A DNA stretch of 42,638 nt from Minisyncoccia bacterium. Its GTDB lineage: Bacteria > Patescibacteriota > Minisyncoccia > Phycocordibacterales > CSBR16-119. Each line of letters opens with the position of its first letter. The first letter of the stretch is position 1. Both the position numbers and the translations under genes were made by a program. Positions 11,653 to 31,368 of this stretch are shown in pieces. Location: assembly GCA_047619465.1 (NCBI GenBank), contig JBLHJW010000002.1, positions 1 through 42,638 of the forward strand, in the 5' to 3' direction. The notes under the pieces are model-generated. The model was not told the origin of the DNA, ran no database searches, and was given only the letters and a program-made list of their open reading frames with translations.

Positions 11653-13437
11653 ATGACACATCATGAAATAAGACAGAGATTTCTAAATTTCTTTGAGAAG
11701 CGAGGACATACAGTTCTTCCTTCAGCCTCTCTTGTAACCACAGACGAACCAGGTCAAACAAACAAAACACTGTTTAATACTGCAGGCATGCAGCCACTTG
11801 TTCCGTATCTAATGGGAGAAGTTCATCCAGATGGACAGAGGCTTGCTAGTGCTCAGAAATGTCTACGAACAGTAGATATAGAAGAGGTTGGAGATAATAC
11901 CCATAATACTTTTTTTGAAATGCTTGGAAATTGGTCTCTTGGAGATTATTTCAAGGAGGATGCTATTAACTGGAGTTATGAATTTCTAACGAACCCGGAG
12001 GAGGGTCTTGGGTTGGACTCGTCTCGCATCTACGTGACAGTTTTTGCGGGGAATGATGACGTTCCAAGAGACATGGAATCTGTAGAGATATGGAAATCTA
12101 TTGGAATTTCCGAAGATAGAATATATTTCCGTGATAGTAAGGACAATTGGTGGACAGCTGGGGCTGATTCTCCTGCGGGTCCATCATCTGAGATGTTCTA
12201 CGATTTGACTGGAGAGCTTGGAGATATGACATCCGATGAGTTTGAGAAGGCGGATCATGATCAAAAAGTTTTAGAGATTTGGAATGATGTCTTTATGTCT
12301 TACAGACAAGAGGCTGGAAAAGTTGTCGGAGATCTGCCACAGAAAAATGTGGATACAGGAGCTGGTCTAGAACGAATCACTGCCGTGGTTCAAGAAAAAG
12401 CACATATATATGAGACAACTATTTTTGCTCCATATATTTCATATATAAAAGAAAACTCACTAAACTACAATGAAGTAAAAGCTCGAATAATTGCTGACCA
12501 CTTCCGGGCGACAGTTTTTATAATATCAGATGGTATTTTTCCTTCAAACACAGATAGAGGGTATGTGCTCCGAAGGCTTATTCGAAGACTAATAATGGCG
12601 GGAAGAAATATATCTTTCTCTGGAGAGTATGATGATTTGGTAGAAATGATAGAAACTGATTATTCTTCTGTGTATAGAAATATAGACAAGATGAAAGTAA
12701 GTGAAATATTCGAAAATGAAAAAGTTAAGTTTGAGAAGGCAATAGAAAGGGGTCAGAAAGAACTTGCTAAGCTTTCTTCAAAAGATGAATTTATCCTATC
12801 AGGAGAAGATCTTTCATTGTTAGAGCAGACTCACGGCCTACCAGTAGAGCTAACACTGTCTCTTGCTGTAGAGTCTGGAGCCTCTGTTTCAGATTCAGCA
12901 GTTCGTGACTATGAAGACCTGGTAAAAAAACACAAAAAACTTTCCCAAACCTCAGCAGAAGGAAAGTTTAAGGGTGGCTTGGCAGGCGAGAGCGAGATAG
13001 AGATTAAGTACCATACGACCACTCACATGCTTCACCAGGCCCTTAGAGAGGTTCTAGGTAATCATGTAACACAGAAGGGAAGCAATATCACCCCAGATCG
13101 TCTTAGATTTGATTTTTCTCACAGTGAAAAGATGACAGACGAAGAAAAGAGCAGAGTGGAGGATTTAATTAATGAAAAAATAGAGGAAGACTTGCCAGTT
13201 CTTAAAGACGAAATGACCCTTGACCAAGCACGTGAGGCTGGAGCCCTGGGTGTATTTGGTGACAAATATGGAGAAACAGTTAATGTTTATGAAATAGGAA
13301 AAGGAGAAGATATATTCTCAAAAGAAATATGCGGTGGTCCACATGTAGAATCTACTGGCGTACTTGGCAAATTTAGAATAAAAAAAGAAGAAGCCAGCTC
13401 GGCTGGAGTGCGAAGAATAAAAGCAGTGTTGGAATAA
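11653..13437 (+). CDS. alaS: Alanine--tRNA ligase, short form lacking the C-Ala domain
   Basis: Class II AlaRS N-terminus (IRQRFLNFFEKRGHT). Editing domain has HTTTHMLH and CGGPHV and ends right after GVRRIKAV. TGaTATACT lies 6 nt before the ATG. Confidence 0.95.
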   Translation: MTHHEIRQRFLNFFEKRGHTVLPSASLVTTDEPGQTNKTLFNTAGMQPLVPYLMGEVHPDGQRLASAQKCLRTVDIEEVGDNTHNTFFEMLGNWSLGDYFKEDAINWSYEFLTNPEEGLGLDSSRIYVTVFAGNDDVPRDMESVEIWKSIGISEDRIYFRDSKDNWWTAGADSPAGPSSEMFYDLTGELGDMTSDEFEKADHDQKVLEIWNDVFMSYRQEAGKVVGDLPQKNVDTGAGLERITAVVQEKAHIYETTIFAPYISYIKENSLNYNEVKARIIADHFRATVFIISDGIFPSNTDRGYVLRRLIRRLIMAGRNISFSGEYDDLVEMIETDYSSVYRNIDKMKVSEIFENEKVKFEKAIERGQKELAKLSSKDEFILSGEDLSLLEQTHGLPVELTLSLAVESGASVSDSAVRDYEDLVKKHKKLSQTSAEGKFKGGLAGESEIEIKYHTTTHMLHQALREVLGNHVTQKGSNITPDRLRFDFSHSEKMTDEEKSRVEDLINEKIEEDLPVLKDEMTLDQAREAGALGVFGDKYGETVNVYEIGKGEDIFSKEICGGPHVESTGVLGKFRIKKEEASSAGVRRIKAVLE

Positions 13438-20191: not shown

Positions 20192-20207
20192 TAACTATTT
20201 TAATTTT

Positions 20208-20232
20208 AAAACACTCGAAAGAGTGTTTTTTT
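20208..20232 (+). terminator. Rho-independent terminator ending the ribosomal block
   Basis: AAAACACTC-GAAA-GAGTGTTTTTTT. Confidence 0.85.
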
Positions 20233-20254
20233 GTTTGTCTGTTATACTACAGCT

Positions 20255-21874
20255 ATGAAAATTAATTCACTGATCTCAAAGCAAACAACATTACTTCTAA
20301 TTCTTGCAATTTCTTTTGCAACACTTTTCTTACCTTTAACAAGTGTCCAAGCTGCAACGCTAAAAACAGGCATGGACGCTAGCGATGTAATCGGTTCTCC
20401 GAGAACATTCACAACAACTGCTGCAACCATCACCTCAAGTGGTTTTACTTTTCCCATTGACACTTATTTAGACACAACGAATAACTACTTATTCACTATG
20501 TCGCAAATATCTAATCGTGTCCTTGTTTTTAATCTTAACGCCGATCACACTCTGATTGACTACACAGCTGACTATGTTCTTGGTCAGACAGACTTTACTT
20601 CAAGCAGCACGTCAACGACAGCTTCAACATTTTCAAAAATAAGATCTATTACTGTGGATGAGGCAAACCAGAGGCTGTATGTTAGTGACACTGGATCAAG
20701 CCGAGTTCTTATGTTTGACTATTCAGTCAGTTTTTCAAATGGAATGAGTGCTTCAAGGGTTCTTGGTCAAGCCAACTTTACCGCTAGTGCTGCTACTGCA
20801 ACACAGTCAGGGATGGAAGAGCCATCCTCAATTGAATACGACGCCACGAATGAGAGATTGTTTGTTTTAGATGCCTTTGGCGAAAGGGTCCTCATTTTTG
20901 ACACATCAGATGGTGTGACAAACAATGAGGCCGCTATTAATGTTCTTGGTCAAGACGATTTTATTTCAAACGGAGGTACAACAACTCAAAGCGGTATAAG
21001 TAACACTGAAGATGTGTCATATGACTCTGATACATCATACTTGTATGTTGCCGATCCCGCTAACAAAAGGATTATGGTTTGGGATTTGTCATCTGTGGTT
21101 ACAAATGGAATGGATGCAAGTTACGTTCTTGGTCAAGCAGACTTTACTTCAGATACTGATTTTGGGACAACACAAAAATCTGTAAGTAATTTAACGTCGG
21201 TTTCTGTCGACACGGTAAATAATCGTTTGTATGTTGGTGACACTAATCGAGTGCTCGTCTTCGACATCTCATCAGGTGTCTCAAACAATATGGATGCAAC
21301 ATATGTTATCGGTCAAGCCGACTTTGTAAGTAATTCAGGAAACAGGGGAGGGTCTGCTGGAGCGAATACATTGTTTTATGTTTTTGGTGTGGATATAAAC
21401 GAGTTAGACAATATTCTTTATGTTTCTGATACAGGGAATACCCGAGTTCTAATCTTCGACCTCTCAGCCACAGTCTCATCATCCCCATCAACCGGCCTCT
21501 CCTACACCCACCCACCACTCTGCAAAGCCACAATCACTCCAAACACAATAACAGCAGGAGAAGAAACAACACTAAGCTGGAACACAACATGGCCCACAGA
21601 CAGACAATCAAACTACTACACCAAAGTACCAGGAGAAGGACTATACTCTTCCAGTGTAAACTCAATATCAATACAACCAAAACACACTACAACCTACAGA
21701 CTAGCTACATTCAACCTATGGGGAGCAAACTTCTGCGAAGCTACAGTAGAAGTACTAGACACCGAAGGAGAAGAAGTAACCTCTGAAAGAAACTCTATAC
21801 TGACTGCTTCAGCTGCAGGGAACTCATTCTTTAGACCAATTATTTCGTTCTTTGCTGGATTGTTTGTGAGGTAA
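20255..21874 (+). CDS. Secreted NHL-repeat beta-propeller protein, paralog A, with a conserved C-terminal Ig-like module and hydrophobic tail
   Basis: Signal peptide ending LTSVQAAT. About six blades carry GMDASYVLGQADFTS and NRVLVFD-type NHL motifs. TGtTATACT lies 6 nt before the ATG. Confidence 0.85.
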   Translation: MKINSLISKQTTLLLILAISFATLFLPLTSVQAATLKTGMDASDVIGSPRTFTTTAATITSSGFTFPIDTYLDTTNNYLFTMSQISNRVLVFNLNADHTLIDYTADYVLGQTDFTSSSTSTTASTFSKIRSITVDEANQRLYVSDTGSSRVLMFDYSVSFSNGMSASRVLGQANFTASAATATQSGMEEPSSIEYDATNERLFVLDAFGERVLIFDTSDGVTNNEAAINVLGQDDFISNGGTTTQSGISNTEDVSYDSDTSYLYVADPANKRIMVWDLSSVVTNGMDASYVLGQADFTSDTDFGTTQKSVSNLTSVSVDTVNNRLYVGDTNRVLVFDISSGVSNNMDATYVIGQADFVSNSGNRGGSAGANTLFYVFGVDINELDNILYVSDTGNTRVLIFDLSATVSSSPSTGLSYTHPPLCKATITPNTITAGEETTLSWNTTWPTDRQSNYYTKVPGEGLYSSSVNSISIQPKHTTTYRLATFNLWGANFCEATVEVLDTEGEEVTSERNSILTASAAGNSFFRPIISFFAGLFVR

Positions 21875-21917
21875 AAAACTTTGTTTAAAAAGCACCCGAG
21901 AGGGTGTTTTTTTCTAT
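21452..21917 (+). repeat. Direct repeat copy A (3' module of paralog A plus its terminator)
   Basis: Aligns by eye with 24989-25452. Exact runs of 33, 63 and 79 nt (the 79-nt run is 21681-21759). Confidence 0.9.
21886..21913 (+). terminator. Rho-independent terminator
   Basis: CACCC-GAGA-GGGTG followed by TTTTTTT. Confidence 0.8.
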
Positions 21918-22008
21918 GCATTCATAATTTAGATAAATAATTACTCTAATTGACTTAAATAAATTATGTGTTATATTTAAATTAAATTCTAACAAAAACT
22001 AAAGTACC

Positions 22009-23700
22009 ATGAAAAAAATGAAGAGAAGTATGCAACTTTGTGTTGTGGCGCTGCTATGCGCGAGTATGCTTGATATAACGGTGAGCAATGCCCAAAATGG
22101 TATACAACACCTTGAAAAGTTCCCGGGATCTGAAGATTTTTCGTTTCAAACAAGTGGGATAAAATTTACTATTGTTGATGCGATGAATAAATCGCAAAAC
22201 TCAGAGATGCCATATATTGCGGGTACCCCTGGTGCCTCTCAATTCAATGCATCAATTGCAACAATTGGAGCGGGTCTTCTTATTCCAGATAGTGCTACAC
22301 CTTTCGAGTTGCCTAAGAACAGACCAGTCATGTGGTTTTGGAATATTCAAAATCATATTATTGCGAAACTCCCCGGTTCAATTCGGGACTTAAAGTTTTA
22401 CCCTGTGGAGGGTTCAATGGGTGATACGACCTACTACTGGTCATACCAAGACCTTCAACGGATTGAAGTTATTGGTCAAGACACGAATTACTACGTAACC
22501 GTGGTAATTGGTCAGGATACGACATGGTCTCGAGAGATTAGATTTGAGAATAATGTGAATTATTTCCTTGATGCGGAGGCAGATGGTCATGATCATTTTT
22601 TCAATCCTAATTTTCCTGGTGGTCTCGTTGCCTATGTGTGGATGCTCTATGAGGAGAGGGATATGTCCGCCTTTGATTGTGGTGGTCAGCCGTGCTCTGA
22701 AGCAATGGTAATGGGGATTGAATATGTCCAGATTAAAAACTCTACTGGTGAAACACTTCGTCAGTACAAGCTGGATGATTTTGATCAGTCTGAAATCATA
22801 GAATATTATCTCACAGATAGAGAGGATCCATATTTTGCTTCTCAGCAATACTGGTTGAATTCAGTGGATATGCCACAGAATAACGACAGCGTTGTGTTGT
22901 GTAGTGCCAGAAGGATTAATGACATCTTTGCCTATGGTCCTTCAGGGGTTCAGTTTAGATTCAAGGATCTTGCCTGGACGGGAGGTGACAGTGTCACCGT
23001 GGCTGGGCAACACTCTGCAAAGATTCTCTCCTACGATGAGTTTCAGATGGATTTTATCTTTTTCAATAATGCTGTACCCGAGGCGGGAGGAGACACTATT
23101 TCCGAGGCAATTATTGCGAGAGTGGATTTCCAGAATCAGACCAGACAGATTCTTTCGAGGTATGGAGGAGAATATGGTTTGTACGGAAATGCTATGGGTA
23201 ATGCTGGCGCGATTGGAAGCTCTGTTTCCATGTGCTACGGCTTCGGCTTCGAGCATATGTATCCTCTTGGAAATCCTTCAGGTCTAGAATACTCGACTTT
23301 GGACGGAAGTGTCTTGAGAGAGATTTACCTGCCTGACTTCAACTTCTCTGCGGGGATGTATCTTCATGAGCCAAAGAACATGGAGTGGCTCGTAGACATA
23401 CTCGCTGTAGAAGATTCCGTAAATTTGGGGGGACGGTGGATGTATCGAGTGGATGACCCGCTTGCTGTGAGAGAGGTTGCAGAGGTTAAGAGCTTACTGC
23501 TCTATCCAAATCCAGCAACTAACATCGTTACTCTTACAGAGAAAGTTCACCAGGTGAGACTTTTTGCCATTGATGGTAAAGAGGTCTTCGCTCCACGGAG
23601 AGGCAAGGTTCTTGATGTAAGCTCTCTTGTTAAGGGGGTATACGCCATTCATTTGGCACATCCAGACGGTTTGTTTGTTGAAAGATTGATTATCCAGTGA
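22009..23700 (+). CDS. Secreted protein with a T9SS (Por) type-A C-terminal sorting domain
   Basis: Signal peptide MKKMKRSMQLCVVALLCASML...AQ. The last 68 aa (23494-23697), LLLYPNPATNIVTLT...VRLFAIDGKEV...LVKGVYAIHL...ERLIIQ, match the T9SS CTD pattern (yPNPa, D..Gk.v, l..GvY). Confidence 0.85.
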   Translation: MKKMKRSMQLCVVALLCASMLDITVSNAQNGIQHLEKFPGSEDFSFQTSGIKFTIVDAMNKSQNSEMPYIAGTPGASQFNASIATIGAGLLIPDSATPFELPKNRPVMWFWNIQNHIIAKLPGSIRDLKFYPVEGSMGDTTYYWSYQDLQRIEVIGQDTNYYVTVVIGQDTTWSREIRFENNVNYFLDAEADGHDHFFNPNFPGGLVAYVWMLYEERDMSAFDCGGQPCSEAMVMGIEYVQIKNSTGETLRQYKLDDFDQSEIIEYYLTDREDPYFASQQYWLNSVDMPQNNDSVVLCSARRINDIFAYGPSGVQFRFKDLAWTGGDSVTVAGQHSAKILSYDEFQMDFIFFNNAVPEAGGDTISEAIIARVDFQNQTRQILSRYGGEYGLYGNAMGNAGAIGSSVSMCYGFGFEHMYPLGNPSGLEYSTLDGSVLREIYLPDFNFSAGMYLHEPKNMEWLVDILAVEDSVNLGGRWMYRVDDPLAVREVAEVKSLLLYPNPATNIVTLTEKVHQVRLFAIDGKEVFAPRRGKVLDVSSLVKGVYAIHLAHPDGLFVERLIIQ

Positions 23701-23714
23701 TTCGTTTCATTGGT

Positions 23715-23744
23715 AAAACCCACGACTTTTGTCGTGGGTTTTCT
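23715..23744 (+). terminator. Rho-independent terminator
   Basis: AAAACCCACGAC-TTTT-GTCGTGGGTTTT. Confidence 0.85.
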
Positions 23745-23773
23745 GTATTTATTTTTTCTGCTAAACTATAGTG

Positions 23774-25411
23774 ATGAAAATCAAATCAATATTATCTAAA
23801 CAAACAACATTAATCCTTATCCTTACAATTTCTTTTGCAACTCTGTTTCTTCCACTAACATCACTTCAGGCTGCAACGATTTCAAATGGCATGGAAGCGA
23901 GTAATGTTATTGGTCAATCAGACTTTACCTCAAACACAGCGCTTATGGATCAGTCTCATATCATTGTCCCAACTGCTATTGCATACGATACGGTGAATGA
24001 CATATTATTCGCCGCAGGTTTAATTTTTGATGATGAAGACAACGACGCGTTTAGAATCGTCACATATGATCTATCAAGTGGAATCACAGACGGTGTGAAT
24101 GCCACGAACGTCATAGGTCAGGCTAACTTTACCGCAGCTGTTACAGGGACTACTGCTGGAACATTTAGCACACTGATCTCTGATGTTGAATATGATTCAG
24201 TGAATGAAAGACTTTTTGTTTCTGACTATTTTAACTCTCGAGTTCTTGTTTTTGACCTTTCGGGTGGAATTACAAATGGGATGAGTGCGACTTACGTTCT
24301 GGGTCAAGCTAATTTAACAACACTTGATGTGCCTGGTTCCAATCTTGCCACAAGTACGGTAGGTTTTCCTGATAGTCTTGCTTATGACTCTCTCAATGAC
24401 ATGTTGTTTGTTGGGGACACTTTTTATGAGCGAGTAGTGGCGTTTGATTTGTCAGGAGGAATCACAAATAACATGGATGCCTCATATGTTATCGATGATA
24501 CTGACTTTAATACTCCGGTTGCCGGTTTAACACAGAGCGCGTTTCAAAATCCAAAGGGTCTTGAATATGACTCTCAAAATAAGTACCTGTATGTTGCCTC
24601 AGACCTTCAAAACAGAACACTTGTCTATGATTTTTCAGGCGGAGTATCAAATGGGATGAGCGCAAGTTATGTGCTTGGTCAAGCAGACTTTACCTCAAAC
24701 ACAGCGACAGTTAGCGCTTCAGGGTTAAGTGGCCCATCAGATATTGCTTACGATCATTCATCTTTGACACTTTTTATTTCTGACTCATCTAATAACAGAG
24801 TTCTTGGCTACGATATATCAGGTGGAATCACAAATGGAATGGAAGCCAGCAACGTTCTTGGTCAATCGGATTTTTTATCAAATTCAACAGGTCTTACATC
24901 TAGGACACTTAATGAGCAAGGTAAGATGGTTTTTGATCCAACCTCTGGTAGTCTTCTTGTCGCCGATACGTCAAATTATAGAGCTTTGATCTTCGACCTC
25001 TCAGCCACAGTCTCATCATCCTCAGAAAACGGCCGAGGCTACATCCACCCACCACTCTGCGAAGCCACAATCACTCCAAACACAATAACAGCAGGAGAAG
25101 AAACAACACTAAGCTGGAACACAAACTGGCCTACAGAGAACCAAAACACCTACTACTCTAAAGTTCCAGGAGAGGGACTCTTCTCAAGCAAGGTAAACTC
25201 AATATCAATACAACCAGAACACACTACAACCTACAGACTAGCTACATTCAACCTATGGGGAGCAAACTTCTGCGAAGCTACAGTAGAAGTACTAGATGAA
25301 AATGGAGAAGAAGTAACATCAAACAATAACTCAAGACTTACTGCTGGAGTTTCTAATTCACCTATTGTTAGAGCTGTAACTTCTTGGTTTGCTGGTTTGT
25401 TTGTGAGGTAG
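23774..25411 (+). CDS. Secreted NHL-repeat beta-propeller protein, paralog B
   Basis: Same architecture as 20255-21874. The signal peptide and last ~140 aa are conserved and the propeller core is diverged. TGcTAAACT lies 6 nt before the ATG. Confidence 0.85.
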   Translation: MKIKSILSKQTTLILILTISFATLFLPLTSLQAATISNGMEASNVIGQSDFTSNTALMDQSHIIVPTAIAYDTVNDILFAAGLIFDDEDNDAFRIVTYDLSSGITDGVNATNVIGQANFTAAVTGTTAGTFSTLISDVEYDSVNERLFVSDYFNSRVLVFDLSGGITNGMSATYVLGQANLTTLDVPGSNLATSTVGFPDSLAYDSLNDMLFVGDTFYERVVAFDLSGGITNNMDASYVIDDTDFNTPVAGLTQSAFQNPKGLEYDSQNKYLYVASDLQNRTLVYDFSGGVSNGMSASYVLGQADFTSNTATVSASGLSGPSDIAYDHSSLTLFISDSSNNRVLGYDISGGITNGMEASNVLGQSDFLSNSTGLTSRTLNEQGKMVFDPTSGSLLVADTSNYRALIFDLSATVSSSSENGRGYIHPPLCEATITPNTITAGEETTLSWNTNWPTENQNTYYSKVPGEGLFSSKVNSISIQPEHTTTYRLATFNLWGANFCEATVEVLDENGEEVTSNNNSRLTAGVSNSPIVRAVTSWFAGLFVR

Positions 25412-25452
25412 AAAACTTTGTTTAAAAAACACCTGAAAGGGTGTTTTTTTCT
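24989..25452 (+). repeat. Direct repeat copy B (3' module of paralog B plus its terminator)
   Basis: Partner of 21452-21917. Confidence 0.9.
25424..25450 (+). terminator. Rho-independent terminator
   Basis: CACCT-GAAA-GGGTG followed by TTTTTTT. Confidence 0.8.
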
Positions 25453-25506
25453 TGCGGAAAGTTGAATGTTGTACTAGACTCATATCAAACAAGAAAAGTA
25501 GGAGAT

Positions 25507-26172
25507 ATGCAAGACAAAAACAGTATTTTGGTATCGACAGGTAAGATATGCCTATGTTGTGGTGGGAGAGGAAACCACATACAAAAAGAACATTATATGG
25601 AAACTCTGGATAATTACGCTGGTTTGGATCATATCACTATTCCAATGGGGCCTGCCTCAACAAGCCAAGTGGAAACAATCAGGTTTATTTGTCCAACGTG
25701 CGGGTTTAACCCAAGCTTCGTAAGAATCGATGGATCCGAAATGTACAACGAGGAAGATGAAAAAAGACTCTTCAAAATTTTAAAGGATACGTACCCTGCA
25801 AAGTTATCAATGTTCGATGATCGGGTTGATCTGTTTAAAAAAGATCATAATAGAGAATTTGTTCTTTTTGGGTTGACTACTCTTGTCGCTCCTGGATCTG
25901 TAAGAGTTAAGAAATCAAAGGATGATAAATTATTTGCCTTTGGTGAAAATCCATACTGGCTTCAAGAGCGTAAAGTGGTAATCTCATGGTCAGGGACTAA
26001 ATGGATTTCTATTTCAGAGAGAGAATCGGCTGCAGCTGGTGGCATGAAAAATAAACCAGTAGACAATGATGAGCCGCTTCCAGAAGAAGCTGTACCCATG
26101 ATGGAGTTCTATATACAGGGAGATCGCTACACAGAATCTTTCTTTATTGGAAAAAACTTCTTAGAAGAATAG
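25507..26172 (+). CDS. Hypothetical protein with an N-terminal zinc ribbon
   Basis: CLCCGG...CPTCG cysteine pairs. AGGAG lies 4 nt upstream of ATG 25507, one of the few SD sites in the window. The tracked start at 25441 lies inside the preceding terminator. Confidence 0.7.
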   Translation: MQDKNSILVSTGKICLCCGGRGNHIQKEHYMETLDNYAGLDHITIPMGPASTSQVETIRFICPTCGFNPSFVRIDGSEMYNEEDEKRLFKILKDTYPAKLSMFDDRVDLFKKDHNREFVLFGLTTLVAPGSVRVKKSKDDKLFAFGENPYWLQERKVVISWSGTKWISISERESAAAGGMKNKPVDNDEPLPEEAVPMMEFYIQGDRYTESFFIGKNFLEE

Positions 26173-26180
26173 CTATTACA

Positions 26181-26207
26181 AGTCCCGCCATGAGCGGGAC
26201 TTTTTTA
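26181..26207 (+). terminator. Rho-independent terminator
   Basis: AGTCCCGC-CATGA-GCGGGACT followed by TTTTT. Confidence 0.85.
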
Positions 26208-26240
26208 TATCTGGTGTCCTACACATGCTATAATAGTGAA

Positions 26241-27908
26241 ATGTTACAAAAAGAAGCATTGCAAATACTCCAGACAGGAGCAAATATATTCCTCACTGGA
26301 GCTCCGGGGGCAGGGAAGACTTATGTTCTAAATCAGTACATTGAGTACCTCAAAGAACACGCTATTAATGTAGCGGTGACTGCTTCTACTGGTATTGCAG
26401 CGACTCATGTGGGTGGAGTTACTATTCACTCCTGGGCTGGTATAGGTATCAAGGATGACATGAGTCAGGAGGAGCTCGCTGGACTAGTAGAGAAGAAATA
26501 TCTTCACAAGCGTTTTCGAGATACCAAGGTTCTAGTCATAGATGAAATCTCCATGCTTGGTGGCGGAACACTGGATCTAGTGAACAAGGTCTGCAAGAAG
26601 TTTAAGAAAGACACACGGCCATTTGGAGGCTTGCAGGTGGTTCTAGTTGGTGACTTCTTCCAGCTTCCTCCTATTTCCAGGGGAGGAGAATCGGTCTTTG
26701 CCTTTTCTTCAAATACTTGGAAAGAGCTCGCACCTATTGTCTGCTATCTTGGTGAACAACACCGTCAGGAGGATGAGAAACTTCTTTCGCTACTATCTGC
26801 TATCCGTCAGGGTGATGGACTGGAGAATGGTGAAGTTCTGAAAGAGAGAATGGATGTAGAGTTCGAAGATGTTATCTCCGCCACAAAACTATACACTCAC
26901 AATGCTGATGTAGATTTAATAAATGCTCGTGAGCTAGAGAAACTCGAAACAGAAGAAGAAATATACCCCATGGAAACACGTGGACCAGTAACTCATGTTC
27001 AGAAACTTATCGACTCATGTCTATCTCCAGAAGCACTCCTTCTGAAGAAGGGTGCGATAGTTATGTGTACAAAGAATAACTTTGAAAGAGGATATGTAAA
27101 TGGAACCATGGGTGAGATTGTAGACTTCGATGCCAAGACTGGCGATCCAATAATAGTTACAAATGATGGAAGAGAGATTCTAATCTCTTCTGCTACCTGG
27201 GCTATTCAAGATGGAGAAAAGACTCTTGCAGAAGTAACACAGATTCCGCTTCGACTGGCTTGGGCTATCACAGTTCACAAGTCTCAGGGTATGTCGCTAG
27301 ACGCCGCAGAGATAGATCTCGGAAAAGCTTTCGAGTACGGTCAGGGGTACGTAGCGCTTTCTCGTGTGAGGTCTTTCGATGGATTGAAGCTTATAGGATT
27401 CAACTCTGATGCATTACTGATTCACCCTCTAGTTCTAGATGAAGACAAGCGATTCCGATCTAGGTCAACTCAAATAAAAGAGTATCTATCTAAGAAAACA
27501 GAAAAAGAACTAGACGCATCCAAAAAGACATTTATAGAAAACAGCGCCGGCTCAGTAGAGAAGGTAGACTGGAAAGCCGCAGAAGCTCTAGAGGAGAAAA
27601 TCCCATCCCACCACAGAACCCGGTCTTTGATCGAGGAAGGCAAGAAACTCGACGACATTGCCAAAGACCGTGAACTTACAAAAGAAACCGTACTCACTCA
27701 TATAGAAAAGCTCCTTACAGAAGGAACTATCACCCTGAACGATATTTCGTACATACGACCCCGAGGAAAGAAGTTCGCCGATGCACTAGCAGCATTCCAA
27801 GAAGTCTACAACGAAACCGGCGAACTCCACCTCTCCCCAGTAAAGAACAAAACAAAAAATACTTCGTATTATGATATACAGCTTGCCAGATTATTTTTAG
27901 ATAAATAA
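26241..27908 (+). CDS. Pif1/RecD-family SF1B DNA helicase with a C-terminal HTH domain
   Basis: Walker A GAPGAGKT, Walker B VLVIDEISM, GDFFQLPP, TVHKSQG, YVALSR. TGcTATAAT lies 6 nt before ATG 26241. Confidence 0.9.
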   Translation: MLQKEALQILQTGANIFLTGAPGAGKTYVLNQYIEYLKEHAINVAVTASTGIAATHVGGVTIHSWAGIGIKDDMSQEELAGLVEKKYLHKRFRDTKVLVIDEISMLGGGTLDLVNKVCKKFKKDTRPFGGLQVVLVGDFFQLPPISRGGESVFAFSSNTWKELAPIVCYLGEQHRQEDEKLLSLLSAIRQGDGLENGEVLKERMDVEFEDVISATKLYTHNADVDLINARELEKLETEEEIYPMETRGPVTHVQKLIDSCLSPEALLLKKGAIVMCTKNNFERGYVNGTMGEIVDFDAKTGDPIIVTNDGREILISSATWAIQDGEKTLAEVTQIPLRLAWAITVHKSQGMSLDAAEIDLGKAFEYGQGYVALSRVRSFDGLKLIGFNSDALLIHPLVLDEDKRFRSRSTQIKEYLSKKTEKELDASKKTFIENSAGSVEKVDWKAAEALEEKIPSHHRTRSLIEEGKKLDDIAKDRELTKETVLTHIEKLLTEGTITLNDISYIRPRGKKFADALAAFQEVYNETGELHLSPVKNKTKNTSYYDIQLARLFLDK

Positions 27909-30774: not shown

Positions 30775-31311
30775 TTATTCCATCCCAAACTGCTTGAAGA
30801 GTTCCTCCTCAGTTTCTGGGTCCAACTTAGATACAGACACCATAACCTCGGTTCCTAGACTGAGGTCTTTTTTTATTTCTGCGAACATGTGCTCGAGTGG
30901 GTAGGGTGAAATCCATACAGAGTTCTTGAGTAGCAAGAAACCAGCTTTCTTTAGAAGGTATCGGAAGCTTTCTCTTTCTGCTTTTCTATCTTCTGGAATA
31001 TCCACTAGTATCATCCGCCAAAAACCGTCCCAAGATGTTGAGACTAGACTGTTTGAGTTAGTTAATTTTATGTTACGGAGCTTTGCTTGGCCTTCTGGTG
31101 TGAGTCGGAGAAAGCTAGAGTGCTCAGTGTCGAACTGCTCGACTAAATCTGTATCCTTCAAGGCTTTGAGTGTCCTGTTTAGGGCGTATTTTGCCTTTGT
31201 ATCGTCTGTATACTCTTCAAATAGCTCAGAGTGCAGATCACGCTTTTTGAGTGATTTTCGGGCCCCCAGAGCTCGGAGGATATACTCTTGAATTGACTTT
31301 TTCTTTGACAT
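30775..31311 (-). CDS. PaaX-family-like transcriptional regulator
   Basis: N-terminal wHTH. WDGFWRMILVDIPEDRKAERESFRYLLKKAGFLLLKNSVWISPYP matches the PaaX C-domain pattern. The start is set at M14 because TTGTCA-17-TACTAT lies 6 nt upstream. Confidence 0.75.
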   Translation of the reverse strand: MSKKKSIQEYILRALGARKSLKKRDLHSELFEEYTDDTKAKYALNRTLKALKDTDLVEQFDTEHSSFLRLTPEGQAKLRNIKLTNSNSLVSTSWDGFWRMILVDIPEDRKAERESFRYLLKKAGFLLLKNSVWISPYPLEHMFAEIKKDLSLGTEVMVSVSKLDPETEEELFKQFGME

Positions 31312-31317
31312 ATTCAT

Positions 31318-31346
31318 ATAGTAACACTCTATACTCTTTTTGACAA
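31318..31346 (-). promoter_or_regulatory. Promoter TTGTCA-17-TACTAT (minus strand), leaderless type
   Basis: Plus-strand tgacaa at 31341-31346 and atagta at 31318-31323. The ATG is at 31311. Confidence 0.55.
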
Positions 31347-31368
31347 TCATTCTGCGACCACAGAAAAC

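What the first reader, a model, noticed from the sequence alone, without database searches (positions are those of the whole stretch)
22009..23700. T9SS C-terminal sorting domain in a Patescibacteria-like genome
The last 68 aa (23494-23697) read LLLYPNPATNIVTLTEKVHQVRLFAIDGKEVF...LVKGVYAIHLAHPDGLFVERLIIQ. This is the classic type-A Por/T9SS CTD pattern. T9SS is a Bacteroidota/FCB outer-membrane secretion system and should have no machinery in a CPR-type cell.

By eye this gene also uses more GC-rich codons (GCG, CCG, CGG, GTG) than its neighbours. Its start region is A-rich with no SD and is preceded by TATATTTA, which is close to the Bacteroidetes -7 box TAnnTTTG.

I see three possible explanations:
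- horizontal acquisition from a Bacteroidota host or neighbour;
- a repurposed CTD;
- a binning or assembly chimera.
Basis: partly seen in the sequence, partly recalled or inferred. Interest (0 to 1): 0.75.

Follow-up and report, generated by a model that had tools for sequence, protein, structure and literature searches.

The report
Bacteroidota-type secretion tail in a Paceibacteria gene
A real gene in an ultra-small (Patescibacteria) bacterium carries the C-terminal export tag of the Bacteroidota type IX secretion system; it most likely arrived as a single-gene import from a Bacteroidota neighbour, and similar tagged genes recur in related genomes.

Summary
ORF 22009-23700 (563 aa) ends in a type-A T9SS C-terminal domain: PF18962 scores 32.8 bits (cutoff 27) and TIGR04183 30.9 bits (cutoff 23). 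An exhaustive search of 1.84 billion proteins found 73 hits besides the protein itself, all CTD-only. The canonical motifs are present, and solved T9SS CTDs top the fold search.

The contig is Paceibacteria: RpoA's best matches (86-57%) are all Patescibacteria.

A chimera at the gene's borders is unlikely, because the identical gene lies in the same local setting in three assemblies. A 363-bp exact repeat does leave open which NHL paralog (A or A') precedes it.

The gene is a ~1.84-kb cassette with its own promoter-like site and terminator. It sits between two tandem NHL paralogs, in a block absent from the five closest relatives.

The 480-aa passenger has no detectable homologue, only a sub-threshold arylsulfotransferase-like signal.

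Codon and 4-mer atypicality, a signal peptide with Gln at +1 (the Bacteroidetes "Q-rule"), and nearest CTDs from Flavobacteriales favour import from Bacteroidota.

The missing SD (41 of 43 genes) and the "-7 box" do not discriminate.

CTD proteins are not unique here. Another family on Patescibacteria backbones keeps its CTD under purifying selection, and a decayed copy also exists.

Moderate interest; new member of a known kind.

The parts
20255..21874 (+). Paralog A: NHL-repeat beta-propeller protein with signal peptide (…VQA|AT) and conserved C-terminal Ig-like region plus hydrophobic tail. Left neighbour of the cassette.
   Evidence: NHL PF01436, 36.5 bits. Native-like codon use. The rpsI->A join is 100% identical in JGI contig L002 and Logan contig L003. 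Its last 363 bp are identical to paralog A' on L084.
21893..21915 (+). Terminator of A (CACCCGAGAGGGTG plus T-run), a member of a terminator family also found after rpsI and after B. It marks the end of native sequence to the left of the cassette.
   Evidence: repeat family D10. Contained in Logan contig L001 together with the target gene.
21916..23759 (+). The ~1.84-kb single-gene cassette (promoter, ORF, terminator), bounded by the short direct repeat TTTTTTCT (21908-21915 and 23752-23759).
   Evidence: A-end/B-end alignment diverges right after GTTTTTTTCT. Alignment of the A, A' and B leaders. Sequence read. The repeat is low-complexity, so it is only weak evidence for an insertion scar.
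21950..21977 (+). Sigma-70-like promoter candidate TTGACT-16 nt-TATATT with TG extension, ~32 nt upstream of the ATG.
   Evidence: 10 of 12 matches. The number of such sites in the region is not above chance, so position is the only support.
22009..23700 (+). Target ORF, 563 aa: signal peptide, orphan passenger, type-A T9SS CTD.
   Evidence: Identical in three assemblies.
22009..22092 (+). Predicted Sec/SPI signal peptide (residues 1-28: n-region KKMKRS, h-region LCVVALLCASML, cleavage VSNA|Q), leaving Gln at +1.
   Evidence: Read from the translation using the -3/-1 rule; no predictor was run. Q at +1 fits the Bacteroidetes Q-rule (PMC5837995).
22684..23262 (+). Weak arylsulfotransferase-like (beta-propeller) signal in the otherwise orphan passenger (residues 226-418).
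   Evidence: PF14269 25.0 bits (cutoff 27), E 1.5e-05. PF05935 21.4 bits (cutoff 24.2), E 1.5e-04. No other homologue in 1.84e9 representatives or in the PDB.
23500..23697 (+). Type-A T9SS C-terminal sorting domain (residues 498-563).
   Evidence: PF18962 32.8 bits vs 27. TIGR04183 30.9 bits vs 23. Motifs. Fold hits to solved T9SS CTDs.
23715..23742 (+). The gene's own intrinsic terminator (12-bp stem with 6 G-C pairs, then a T-rich tail).
   Evidence: Logan contig L001 ends exactly here.
23774..25411 (+). Paralog B: NHL-repeat protein, right neighbour of the cassette. The T->B join is identical in the window and in JGI contig L084.
   Evidence: Native-like codon use.

Best explanation
The gene is a Bacteroidota-style T9SS cargo gene (Sec signal peptide with Gln at +1, passenger, type-A CTD). 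It was imported horizontally as a single-gene cassette into a Paceibacteria genome. It landed in the spacer between two tandem native NHL surface-protein paralogs, inside a lineage-specific block between rpsI and a conserved gene followed by pif1.

In its present host it is probably transcribed from its own sigma-70-like promoter and exported across the cytoplasmic membrane by the universal Sec/SPI pathway. With no outer membrane and no T9SS translocon expected in Patescibacteria, the CTD cannot act as a T9SS signal. It would remain attached as a C-terminal Ig-like beta-sandwich, either a vestige or a generic surface or adhesion module. The passenger is probably a beta-propeller enzyme or binding domain of the arylsulfotransferase-like kind.

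Shown: the CTD identity, the Paceibacteria backbone, the cassette anatomy, absence from close relatives, and contig continuity.

Inferred: the donor phylum, Sec export, lack of a T9SS in this genome, and the fate of the CTD.
For: - CTD identity.
- Host: all 80 best RpoA loci are Patescibacteria, the closest at 86%. Core genes fill the window.
- Island: in the five closest relatives rpsI is followed within ~0.8-1.2 kb by pif1, with a g25441-like ORF between them in L004. The window has an extra A-T-B block there. No A, T, B or T-type CTD homologue appears in any of the 80 loci by tblastn.
- Cassette: it has its own promoter-like site and strong terminator. Its boundaries fall right after A's terminator and right before B's conserved leader.
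- T is unrelated to A or B.
- Composition: 4-mer correlation with the rest of the window is 0.661, lower than all 186 equal-sized windows. That is 3.4 sd below the same protein re-coded with native codon usage, whereas A and B match their re-coded nulls. GC3 z = 2.45.
- Donor hints: the named owners of the nearest CTDs are Flavobacterium magnum and Chryseobacterium sp.. Gln is at +1 of the signal peptide, against Ala in native A and B. An average of 71% of Bacteroidetes SPI substrates have Gln at +1, against <9% in most Chlorobi (PMC5837995).
- Precedent: Bacteroidota are disproportionately frequent gene donors to Patescibacteria, including one transfer to a Paceibacteria MAG (PMC12455944).
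- T9SS genes are reported absent outside the FCB phyla (PMC11285876).
- Continuity: the identical gene is in three assemblies.
Against: - No donor is identifiable. The 480-aa passenger has no homologue at E<=1e-3 among 1.84e9 representatives, and the nearest CTDs are only ~40-44% identical. The transfer is therefore either not recent or comes from an unsampled lineage.
- Compositional evidence is not decisive. Dinucleotide bias is unremarkable, with 25 of 186 windows more extreme. The syntenically conserved pif1 deviates from its re-coded null even more than T (z about -5.5).
- The Q at +1 is a single residue at a cleavage site predicted by eye.
- Absence of a T9SS and of an outer membrane in this genome was not tested.
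- A second Patescibacteria CTD family keeps its CTD under purifying selection. That argues CTDs need not be mere vestiges in this phylum.
Confidence: 0.55

Rival explanations
1. Repurposed CTD. The CTD is retained because it does something in Patescibacteria that does not need the cell's own T9SS. It could be a surface or adhesion Ig-like module, or a handle that docks onto a T9SS-bearing (Bacteroidota) host's surface-exposed attachment complex.
For: - A different CTD-protein family lies on Patescibacteria backbones. P0090 appears in six assemblies from at least five samples; in every contig that extends far enough it lies between the same 454-aa ORF and infA-rpsM. P0092 lies next to hpf, fmt, xerC and rpoC.
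- In the L037/L044 ortholog pair the CTD has dN/dS 0.32 and the passenger 0.13. Against the 33%-identical homologue P0092, the CTD is better conserved than the passenger (49% vs 29%).
- T is an intact 563-aa ORF in a 38% GC genome and is identical in three assemblies.
Against: - The selection evidence comes from another family, not from T. T shows no sequence variation to test.
- T's CTD is only 16-23% identical to those CTDs, against 35-39% to Flavobacteriales-type CTDs, so the acquisitions look independent.
- A decayed CTD gene in L007 shows that such genes are also lost.
- No binding partner or host is known.
Confidence: 0.25
2. Native origin. The gene is an old Patescibacteria gene, and the CTD-like domain is an ancestral or convergent Ig-like module rather than an import.
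For: - No donor homologue exists for the passenger.
- The gene has a sigma-70-like promoter, a host-style terminator and no SD, like its neighbours.
- CTD proteins recur in the phylum.
Against: - The gene is absent from the five closest relatives and from all 80 Paceibacteria loci.
- It has the most atypical 4-mer profile in the window, and its codon use departs from the native pattern while A and B do not.
- The CTD matches curated Bacteroidota-built models above their cutoffs, with the closest named relatives in Flavobacteriales.
- The signal peptide is of the Q-rule type.
Confidence: 0.08
3. Assembly or binning chimera. The gene belongs to a Bacteroidota genome and was joined to the Paceibacteria contig by mistake.
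For: - The gene is flanked by repeated paralog sequence.
- Two assemblies disagree on what lies upstream: rpsI-A-T in the window, against fusA-tuf-rpsJ-A'-T in JGI contig L084. The disagreement arises from a 363-bp exact repeat.
- Short-read contigs break at both ends of the gene.
Against: - The disagreement is between two paralogs of the same genome, not between phyla.
- All three assemblies join T's upstream spacer to the native paralog 3' end and terminator. These were made with different assemblers, including a short Logan contig spanning 21862-23742.
- Two assemblies join T to paralog B with 100% identity over 3.8 kb.
- B continues into the syntenic g25441-pif1 backbone.
- Binning is irrelevant, since the gene is on the same 42.6-kb contig as rpoA, dnaK and alaS.
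Confidence: 0.04

Closest known systems
Type-A T9SS cargo proteins of Bacteroidota (TIGR04183 / PF18962 Por_Secre_tail), e.g. Flavobacterium and Chryseobacterium 'T9SS type A sorting domain-containing proteins'; P. gingivalis RgpB as the structural archetype
   Same: - Three-part layout: Sec signal peptide, passenger, ~70-aa C-terminal Ig-like CTD.
- Scores above both curated cutoffs.
- YPNP, the conserved Gly before beta4, GxY and the C-terminal motif are present.
- Gln at +1 of the signal peptide.
- The predicted fold is closest to solved T9SS CTDs.
   Different: - It is encoded on a Paceibacteria chromosome, a phylum in which T9SS genes and an outer membrane are not expected.
- The passenger has no detectable homologue anywhere.
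- CTD identity to the nearest Bacteroidota CTD is only ~40-44%.
Patescibacteria CTD proteins P0090/P0091/P0092 (NCBI name: 'T9SS type A sorting domain-containing protein, partial [Patescibacteria group bacterium]')
   Same: - Signal peptide with Q at +1 in P0090 and P0091 (P0092 is N-terminally truncated).
- PF18962 CTD above cutoff.
- Single-gene insertion next to ribosomal-protein genes on a Paceibacteria backbone.
   Different: - An unrelated passenger (Ig-like/Cys-rich repeats).
- CTD only 16-23% identical to T's.
- A different insertion site (before infA-rpsM).
- That family has several diverged members and measurable purifying selection, whereas T is a singleton.
Arylsulfate sulfotransferase-like beta-propellers (Pfam PF14269 / PF05935)
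   Same: Residues 226-418 give two independent weak matches (E 1.5e-05 and 1.5e-04) to these related families.
   Different: - Both matches are below the gathering cutoffs.
- There is no PDB sequence match.
- The full-length single-sequence model was unusable, so the fold and any catalytic residues are unverified.

Membership tests
T9SS type-A C-terminal sorting domain (PF18962 / TIGR04183) | Score above the curated HMM cutoffs | tested here: met
   PF18962 32.8 bits vs 27. TIGR04183 30.9 bits vs 23.
T9SS type-A C-terminal sorting domain (PF18962 / TIGR04183) | Domain lies at the extreme C-terminus of the protein | tested here: met
   Residues 498-563 of 563. Homologous segments are C-terminal in all 73 hits.
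T9SS type-A C-terminal sorting domain (PF18962 / TIGR04183) | Conserved elements: the Gly at the start of beta4 (loop beta3-beta4 motif) and the C-terminal motif (PMC11285876), plus the YPNP and GxY regions | tested here: met
   Alignment A2 has invariant G47, L64, G67 and Y69, with YPNPA and a C-terminal ERLIIQ.
T9SS type-A C-terminal sorting domain (PF18962 / TIGR04183) | Ig-like 3+4 beta-sandwich fold | tested here: inconclusive
   The AF2 model from a 4-sequence alignment has mean pLDDT 58 (63-75 over the domain) and is all-beta. Top Foldseek hits include six solved T9SS CTDs (TM 0.52-0.62), but no E-value reaches 1e-3.
Functional T9SS cargo | N-terminal Sec signal peptide | tested here: met
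   n/h/c regions and an A-X-A-like site VSNA|Q were read from the translation. This was done by eye; no predictor was available.
Functional T9SS cargo | T9SS machinery (PorK/L/M/N, SprA, PorV, PorU) and an outer membrane in the same cell | not testable with these tools
   Only 42.6 kb of the genome is available, and no such gene lies in the window. The literature states that T9SS genes are absent outside the FCB phyla (PMC11285876).
Functional T9SS cargo | CTD cleavage by PorU and surface attachment or release | not testable with these tools
   Needs proteomics.
Arylsulfotransferase (ASST) beta-propeller families PF14269 / PF05935 | Score above the gathering cutoff | tested here: not met
   25.0 bits vs 27 and 21.4 bits vs 24.2. 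Treated as a fold hint only.
Patescibacteria (class Paceibacteria) chromosome | Core genes most similar to, and syntenic with, Paceibacteria genomes | tested here: met
   All 80 best RpoA loci are Patescibacteria. Shared order: alaS, two ORFs, rpsM-rpsK-rpsD-rpoA-rplQ-rplM-rpsI, then pif1.
Horizontally acquired gene | Absent from close relatives at the syntenic site, compositionally atypical, nearest homologues in another phylum | tested here: inconclusive
   Absence: met. Composition: atypical but not uniquely so. Nearest homologues: true for the CTD only; the passenger has none.

The most novel reading that the evidence does not exclude
CTD-tagged, Q-rule secreted proteins in Paceibacteria may be more than dead cargo. 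They could be tools for living on T9SS-bearing (Bacteroidota/FCB) hosts. The episymbiont would export them by Sec, and the CTD would mimic host cargo to dock onto, or be covalently attached by, the host's surface-exposed T9SS attachment complex (PorV/PorU/PorZ). That would anchor the symbiont's protein on the host. If so, CTD genes would be a sequence-level predictor of host phylum for Paceibacteria, whose hosts are largely unknown.
Probability: 0.07. Interest if true: 0.85.

Novelty: new member of a known kind. Interest (0 to 1): 0.48.

Why it matters
It is a clean, contig-verified case of a Bacteroidota-style secretion-tagged gene inside a Patescibacteria chromosome, and it is not alone. At least one other CTD family is maintained under purifying selection in Paceibacteria, and another copy is decaying.

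This does not appear to be discussed in the searched literature, although NCBI annotation already labels such proteins.

- For CPR biology it offers a marker of gene flow from Bacteroidota, and possibly of physical association with them. That makes the largely unknown host range of Paceibacteria more testable.
- For T9SS biology it raises the question of what a CTD does in a cell with no T9SS.

Taken alone, this one gene is most simply an imported cargo gene whose tag has lost its original use.

Tried and rejected
- Word-indexed homologue search with the full protein found only itself. With the CTD alone it found no candidates, which is a limit of that tool and not evidence of absence.
- Scans for T in JGI metagenome contigs found nothing. 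A scan for the A/A' 3' repeat, meant to find its alternative continuation, also found nothing. That collection evidently lacks these samples.
- Viral contigs, GenBank phages and PHROGs gave no match, so there is no sign of a phage carrier.
- The full-length single-sequence AF2 model had mean pLDDT 31 and was unusable, so no fold claim is made for the passenger. The PDB sequence search gave no hit at E<=10.
- The idea that T arose from its NHL neighbours was prompted by a 21-nt match at 22462-22482. It was rejected because BLASTP found no significant similarity.
- The idea that the missing SD or the TATATTTA motif points to Bacteroidota was rejected as non-discriminating.
- Dinucleotide (CpG) signature as an HGT marker is not exceptional.
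- Exact look-ups of A, B and the window's own 556-aa gene call found nothing on record or were masked. The A versus A' conflict could not be resolved by more contigs.
- tuf and rpsJ of L084 have no counterpart in the fetched relatives' loci, so synteny on that side is untested.
Full report
**1. What is there**

Its last 66 residues (498-563, nt 23500-23697) match the two curated models of the type-A T9SS sorting domain end to end and above their cutoffs. PF18962 scores 32.8 bits against 27. TIGR04183 scores 30.9 bits against 23.

An exhaustive phmmer run against 1.84 billion cluster representatives returned 74 proteins at E<=1e-3. One is the protein itself. The other 73 all match only the C-terminal region (most from about residue 480 onward), and the match lies at the C-terminal end of each hit protein.

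Where the closest hits carry names, they are 'T9SS type A sorting domain-containing protein' of Flavobacterium magnum and Chryseobacterium sp..

In an alignment with such CTDs the YPNP, D-G-K, L-x-x-G-x-Y and C-terminal basic/hydrophobic elements are conserved. They include the Gly at the start of beta4 that mutagenesis has shown to matter (PMC11285876).

An AF2 model of the domain built on a four-sequence alignment has only modest confidence (pLDDT 63-75 over the domain). Even so, its best Foldseek matches in the PDB include six solved T9SS CTDs: NucA, FspA and another substrate chain bound in the SprA translocon, RgpB twice, and mirolase. TM-scores are 0.52-0.62, though no E-value reaches 1e-3. 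The CTD call is therefore sound.

**2. The rest of the protein**

The N-terminus reads as a Sec/SPI signal peptide: n-region KKMKRS, h-region LCVVALLCASML, and cleavage VSNA|Q. This was judged by eye.

Residues 29-480 are an orphan. No protein among the 1.84e9 representatives matches them at E<=1e-3, and nothing in the PDB matches by sequence.

The only signal is a pair of sub-threshold hits to the related arylsulfotransferase propeller families: PF14269 at 25.0 bits against 27, and PF05935 at 21.4 bits against 24.2, over residues 226-418.

The full-length single-sequence structure prediction failed (pLDDT 31), so I make no fold claim beyond 'possibly ASST-like propeller'.

The protein is not related to its NHL-repeat neighbours.

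**3. Whose genome**

The window carries ordinary core genes: frr, rseP, mnmA, a short alaS, rpsM-rpsK-rpsD-rpoA-rplQ-rplM-rpsI, grpE-dnaK-dnaJ, alr, cysS and rplU.

RpoA finds 80 loci in the species-representative genome collection, and all of them are Patescibacteria MAGs (Paceibacteria, Nomurabacteria, Yonathbacteria, Minisyncoccia). The closest is 86% identical.

The window equals a complete 42,638-bp contig held by both NCBI and JGI/IMG. Binning is therefore not an issue, because the gene shares a contig with rpoA and dnaK.

**4. Local anatomy**

The gene sits between two tandem paralogs: A (20255-21874) and B (23774-25411). Both are NHL-repeat beta-propeller proteins with signal peptides, a conserved Ig-like C-terminal region and a hydrophobic tail.

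The similarity between the 3' ends of A and B runs through the stop codon and the terminator hairpin and ends exactly after GTTTTTTTCT. The leaders of A, A' and B align from just after an upstream terminator.

Between these two native boundaries lies a ~1.84-kb unit (21916-23759) containing:
- a sigma-70-like TTGACT-16-TATATT site with a TG extension (21950-21977);
- the ORF;
- a strong terminator of its own (23715-23742).

The octamer TTTTTTCT occurs at both edges. It is low-complexity, so I give it little weight as an insertion scar.

In the five closest relatives that retain pif1 nearby, rpsI is followed within about 1 kb by pif1. In L004 a 241-aa ORF lies between them, weakly similar to window gene 25441-26172. 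The window has the extra A-T-B block there.

None of the 80 Paceibacteria loci contains a homologue of A, B, T or T's CTD by tblastn. T is thus a single-gene cassette inside a lineage-specific block.

**5. Chimera test**

The identical gene has been assembled three times:
- in the window contig;
- in JGI metagenome 3300053698 contig Ga0535657_0017445 (L084, 7959 bp);
- in Logan contig SRR28416751_1412936 (L001, 1881 bp).

L001 equals window 21862-23742 exactly. It therefore joins the last 13 nt of the paralog ORF and its native terminator to T's promoter region and ORF.

L084 is 100% identical to the window from 21512 to 25314, so it confirms both the left junction and the T-to-B junction.

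Upstream of 21512 the two contigs differ. The window has rpsI-A, supported at 100% identity by JGI contig L002 and Logan contig L003. L084 has fusA-tuf-rpsJ-A', where A' is a third paralog, 59% identical to A overall but sharing its last 363 bp exactly.

One of the two assemblies may have taken the wrong turn in that repeat, or both arrangements may exist. The window's version needs only insertions relative to the rpsI-to-pif1 synteny of relatives, so it is the more parsimonious. Read pairs or long reads are needed to settle it.

This ambiguity is between paralogs of one Paceibacteria genome. It does not make T foreign to that genome. I put a cross-phylum chimera at about 4%.

**6. Origin**

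*Composition.* T has GC3 of 0.422 against 0.314 +/- 0.044 for the other ORFs (z 2.45).

Its tetranucleotide profile correlates with the rest of the window at 0.661, lower than every one of 186 equal-sized windows. It is also 3.4 sd lower than the same protein re-coded with native codon usage, whereas A and B match their re-coded nulls.

There are two cautions. Dinucleotide bias is ordinary. And the syntenically conserved pif1 departs from its re-coded null even more. Composition is suggestive, not proof.

*Signal peptide.* The predicted cleavage exposes Gln. This is the Bacteroidetes 'Q-rule': on average 71% of SPI substrates in that phylum, against under 9% in most Chlorobi (PMC5837995). The native neighbours A and B expose Ala.

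*Precedent.* Bacteroidota are among the proportionally most frequent non-CPR donors to Patescibacteria, including a transfer to a Paceibacteria MAG (PMC12455944).

*Against a recent transfer.* There is no donor homologue for the passenger, and the nearest CTDs are only ~40-44% identical.

Forty-one of 43 genes in the window lack an SD core, and the upstream motif fits a sigma-70 promoter at least as well as a Bacteroidota -7 box.

**7. Not a one-off**

A CTD profile built from the hits was run over the six-frame translations of all fetched loci (1.38 Mb). It found further CTDs on Paceibacteria backbones, and Pfam confirmed them.

- **L037 6330-7865.** A 511-aa protein with signal peptide …IKA|QQ and PF18962 at 39.2 bits. 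It is inserted between a 454-aa ORF and infA-rpsM-rpsK-rpsD-rpoA on a 98-kb contig. The same protein turns up in six assemblies from at least five samples, and every contig that extends far enough shows the same arrangement.
- **L044.** Its ortholog, at 37.7 bits.
- **P0092.** A 33%-identical homologue that NCBI names 'T9SS type A sorting domain-containing protein, partial [Patescibacteria group bacterium]'. It lies next to hpf, fmt, xerC and rpoC.

Between L037 and L044 the CTD has dN/dS 0.32 and the passenger 0.13. Against P0092 the CTD is better conserved than the passenger, 49% against 29%. In that family the CTD is being maintained.

Conversely, L007 15430-16523 looks like a decayed cargo gene downstream of pif1: a signal-peptide fragment, a frameshift, an in-frame stop, and a CTD remnant at 25.3 bits.

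T's CTD is much closer to Flavobacteriales CTDs (35-39%) than to the L037-type CTDs (16-23%), so these look like independent acquisitions.

Four literature searches found no paper linking T9SS or its CTD to CPR/Patescibacteria.

**8. How it most likely works**

*Shown:* an intact, independently terminated gene encoding signal peptide, orphan passenger and type-A CTD, on a Paceibacteria chromosome.

*Inferred:*
- It was imported from a Bacteroidota-like donor.
- It is transcribed from its own promoter and exported by Sec/SPI.
- T9SS genes are reported absent outside the FCB phyla, and Patescibacteria are not expected to have an outer membrane (general knowledge, not tested here). The CTD therefore cannot direct T9SS export and stays on the protein as an Ig-like module, either a vestige or a module reused for surface display or adhesion.

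The main rival is that the CTD has an active, T9SS-independent or host-directed role. It is kept alive by the selection seen in the L037 family.

**9. Verdict**

The chimera option is largely excluded, and the promoter and SD arguments fall away.

It is a new member of a known kind: a type-A CTD cargo-type protein in an unexpected but not unprecedented host.

Interest is moderate. It rests less on this single gene than on the recurring, partly selection-maintained presence of T9SS tags in Paceibacteria, and on what that may say about their partners.

Noticed in passing
window 20255-21874 and 23774-25411; L084 2855-4519: There is a family of at least three NHL-repeat surface-protein paralogs (A, B, A'). 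They have conserved 5' leader/signal-peptide and 3' Ig-like/anchor ends and divergent middles. A follows rpsI and A' follows rpsJ, each directly after a ribosomal-protein gene terminator. A and A' share an exact 363-bp 3' end, which suggests recent gene conversion or a variable surface-antigen system. This repeat also causes conflicting assemblies.
   Followed up: partly
L037 6330-7865 (also L086-L089); L044 from ~6829; L085 1-1505: A second, unrelated CTD-bearing protein family (P0090/P0091/P0092) lies on Patescibacteria backbones. It is inserted before infA-rpsM and reproduced in several samples. CTD dN/dS is 0.32, and the CTD is better conserved than the passenger in the distant homologue.
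   Followed up: partly
L007 15430-16523: An apparent pseudogene of a T9SS-cargo-like gene lies downstream of pif1 in a close relative. It consists of a signal-peptide fragment, a frameshift, an in-frame stop, and a CTD remnant (PF18962 25.3 bits, below cutoff).
   Followed up: partly
window 20199-20237, 21880-21918, 25417-25455; L084 771-803: A conserved terminator-like element (TTTAAAAA-CACCYGARAGGGTG-TTTTTTT) recurs after rpsI, after A, after B and after fusA on L084. It looks like a family of near-identical intrinsic terminators or a small repeated element.
   Followed up: no
whole window (43 ORFs): Only 2 of 43 genes have a Shine-Dalgarno core at -20 to -5, and upstream regions are A-rich (mean 41% A). 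This points to genome-wide SD-independent initiation.
   Followed up: partly
window 26190-27908: The Pif1-family helicase is conserved in synteny with relatives, yet it is the most codon-atypical gene relative to its re-coded null (z about -5.5), with raised CpG o/e around 26.4-27.6 kb. This is a warning against using composition alone to call HGT here.
   Followed up: no
window 11653-13437; L037 1676-3508: Alanyl-tRNA synthetase is short (594-610 aa) in both this genome and a 60%-RpoA relative. It is followed by two conserved ORFs of ~395 and ~440-455 aa with no Pfam match.
   Followed up: no
window ~811-834: An (AT)n microsatellite of about 11 units lies immediately upstream of the ORF at 835-1524. 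That ORF has no Pfam match and elevated GC3 (0.41).
   Followed up: no
window 30775-31350 (-): A PaaX-like (Cas2-like central domain) regulator gene has the highest GC3 in the window (0.458) and the second-lowest synonymous-codon likelihood. It may be another acquired gene.
   Followed up: no
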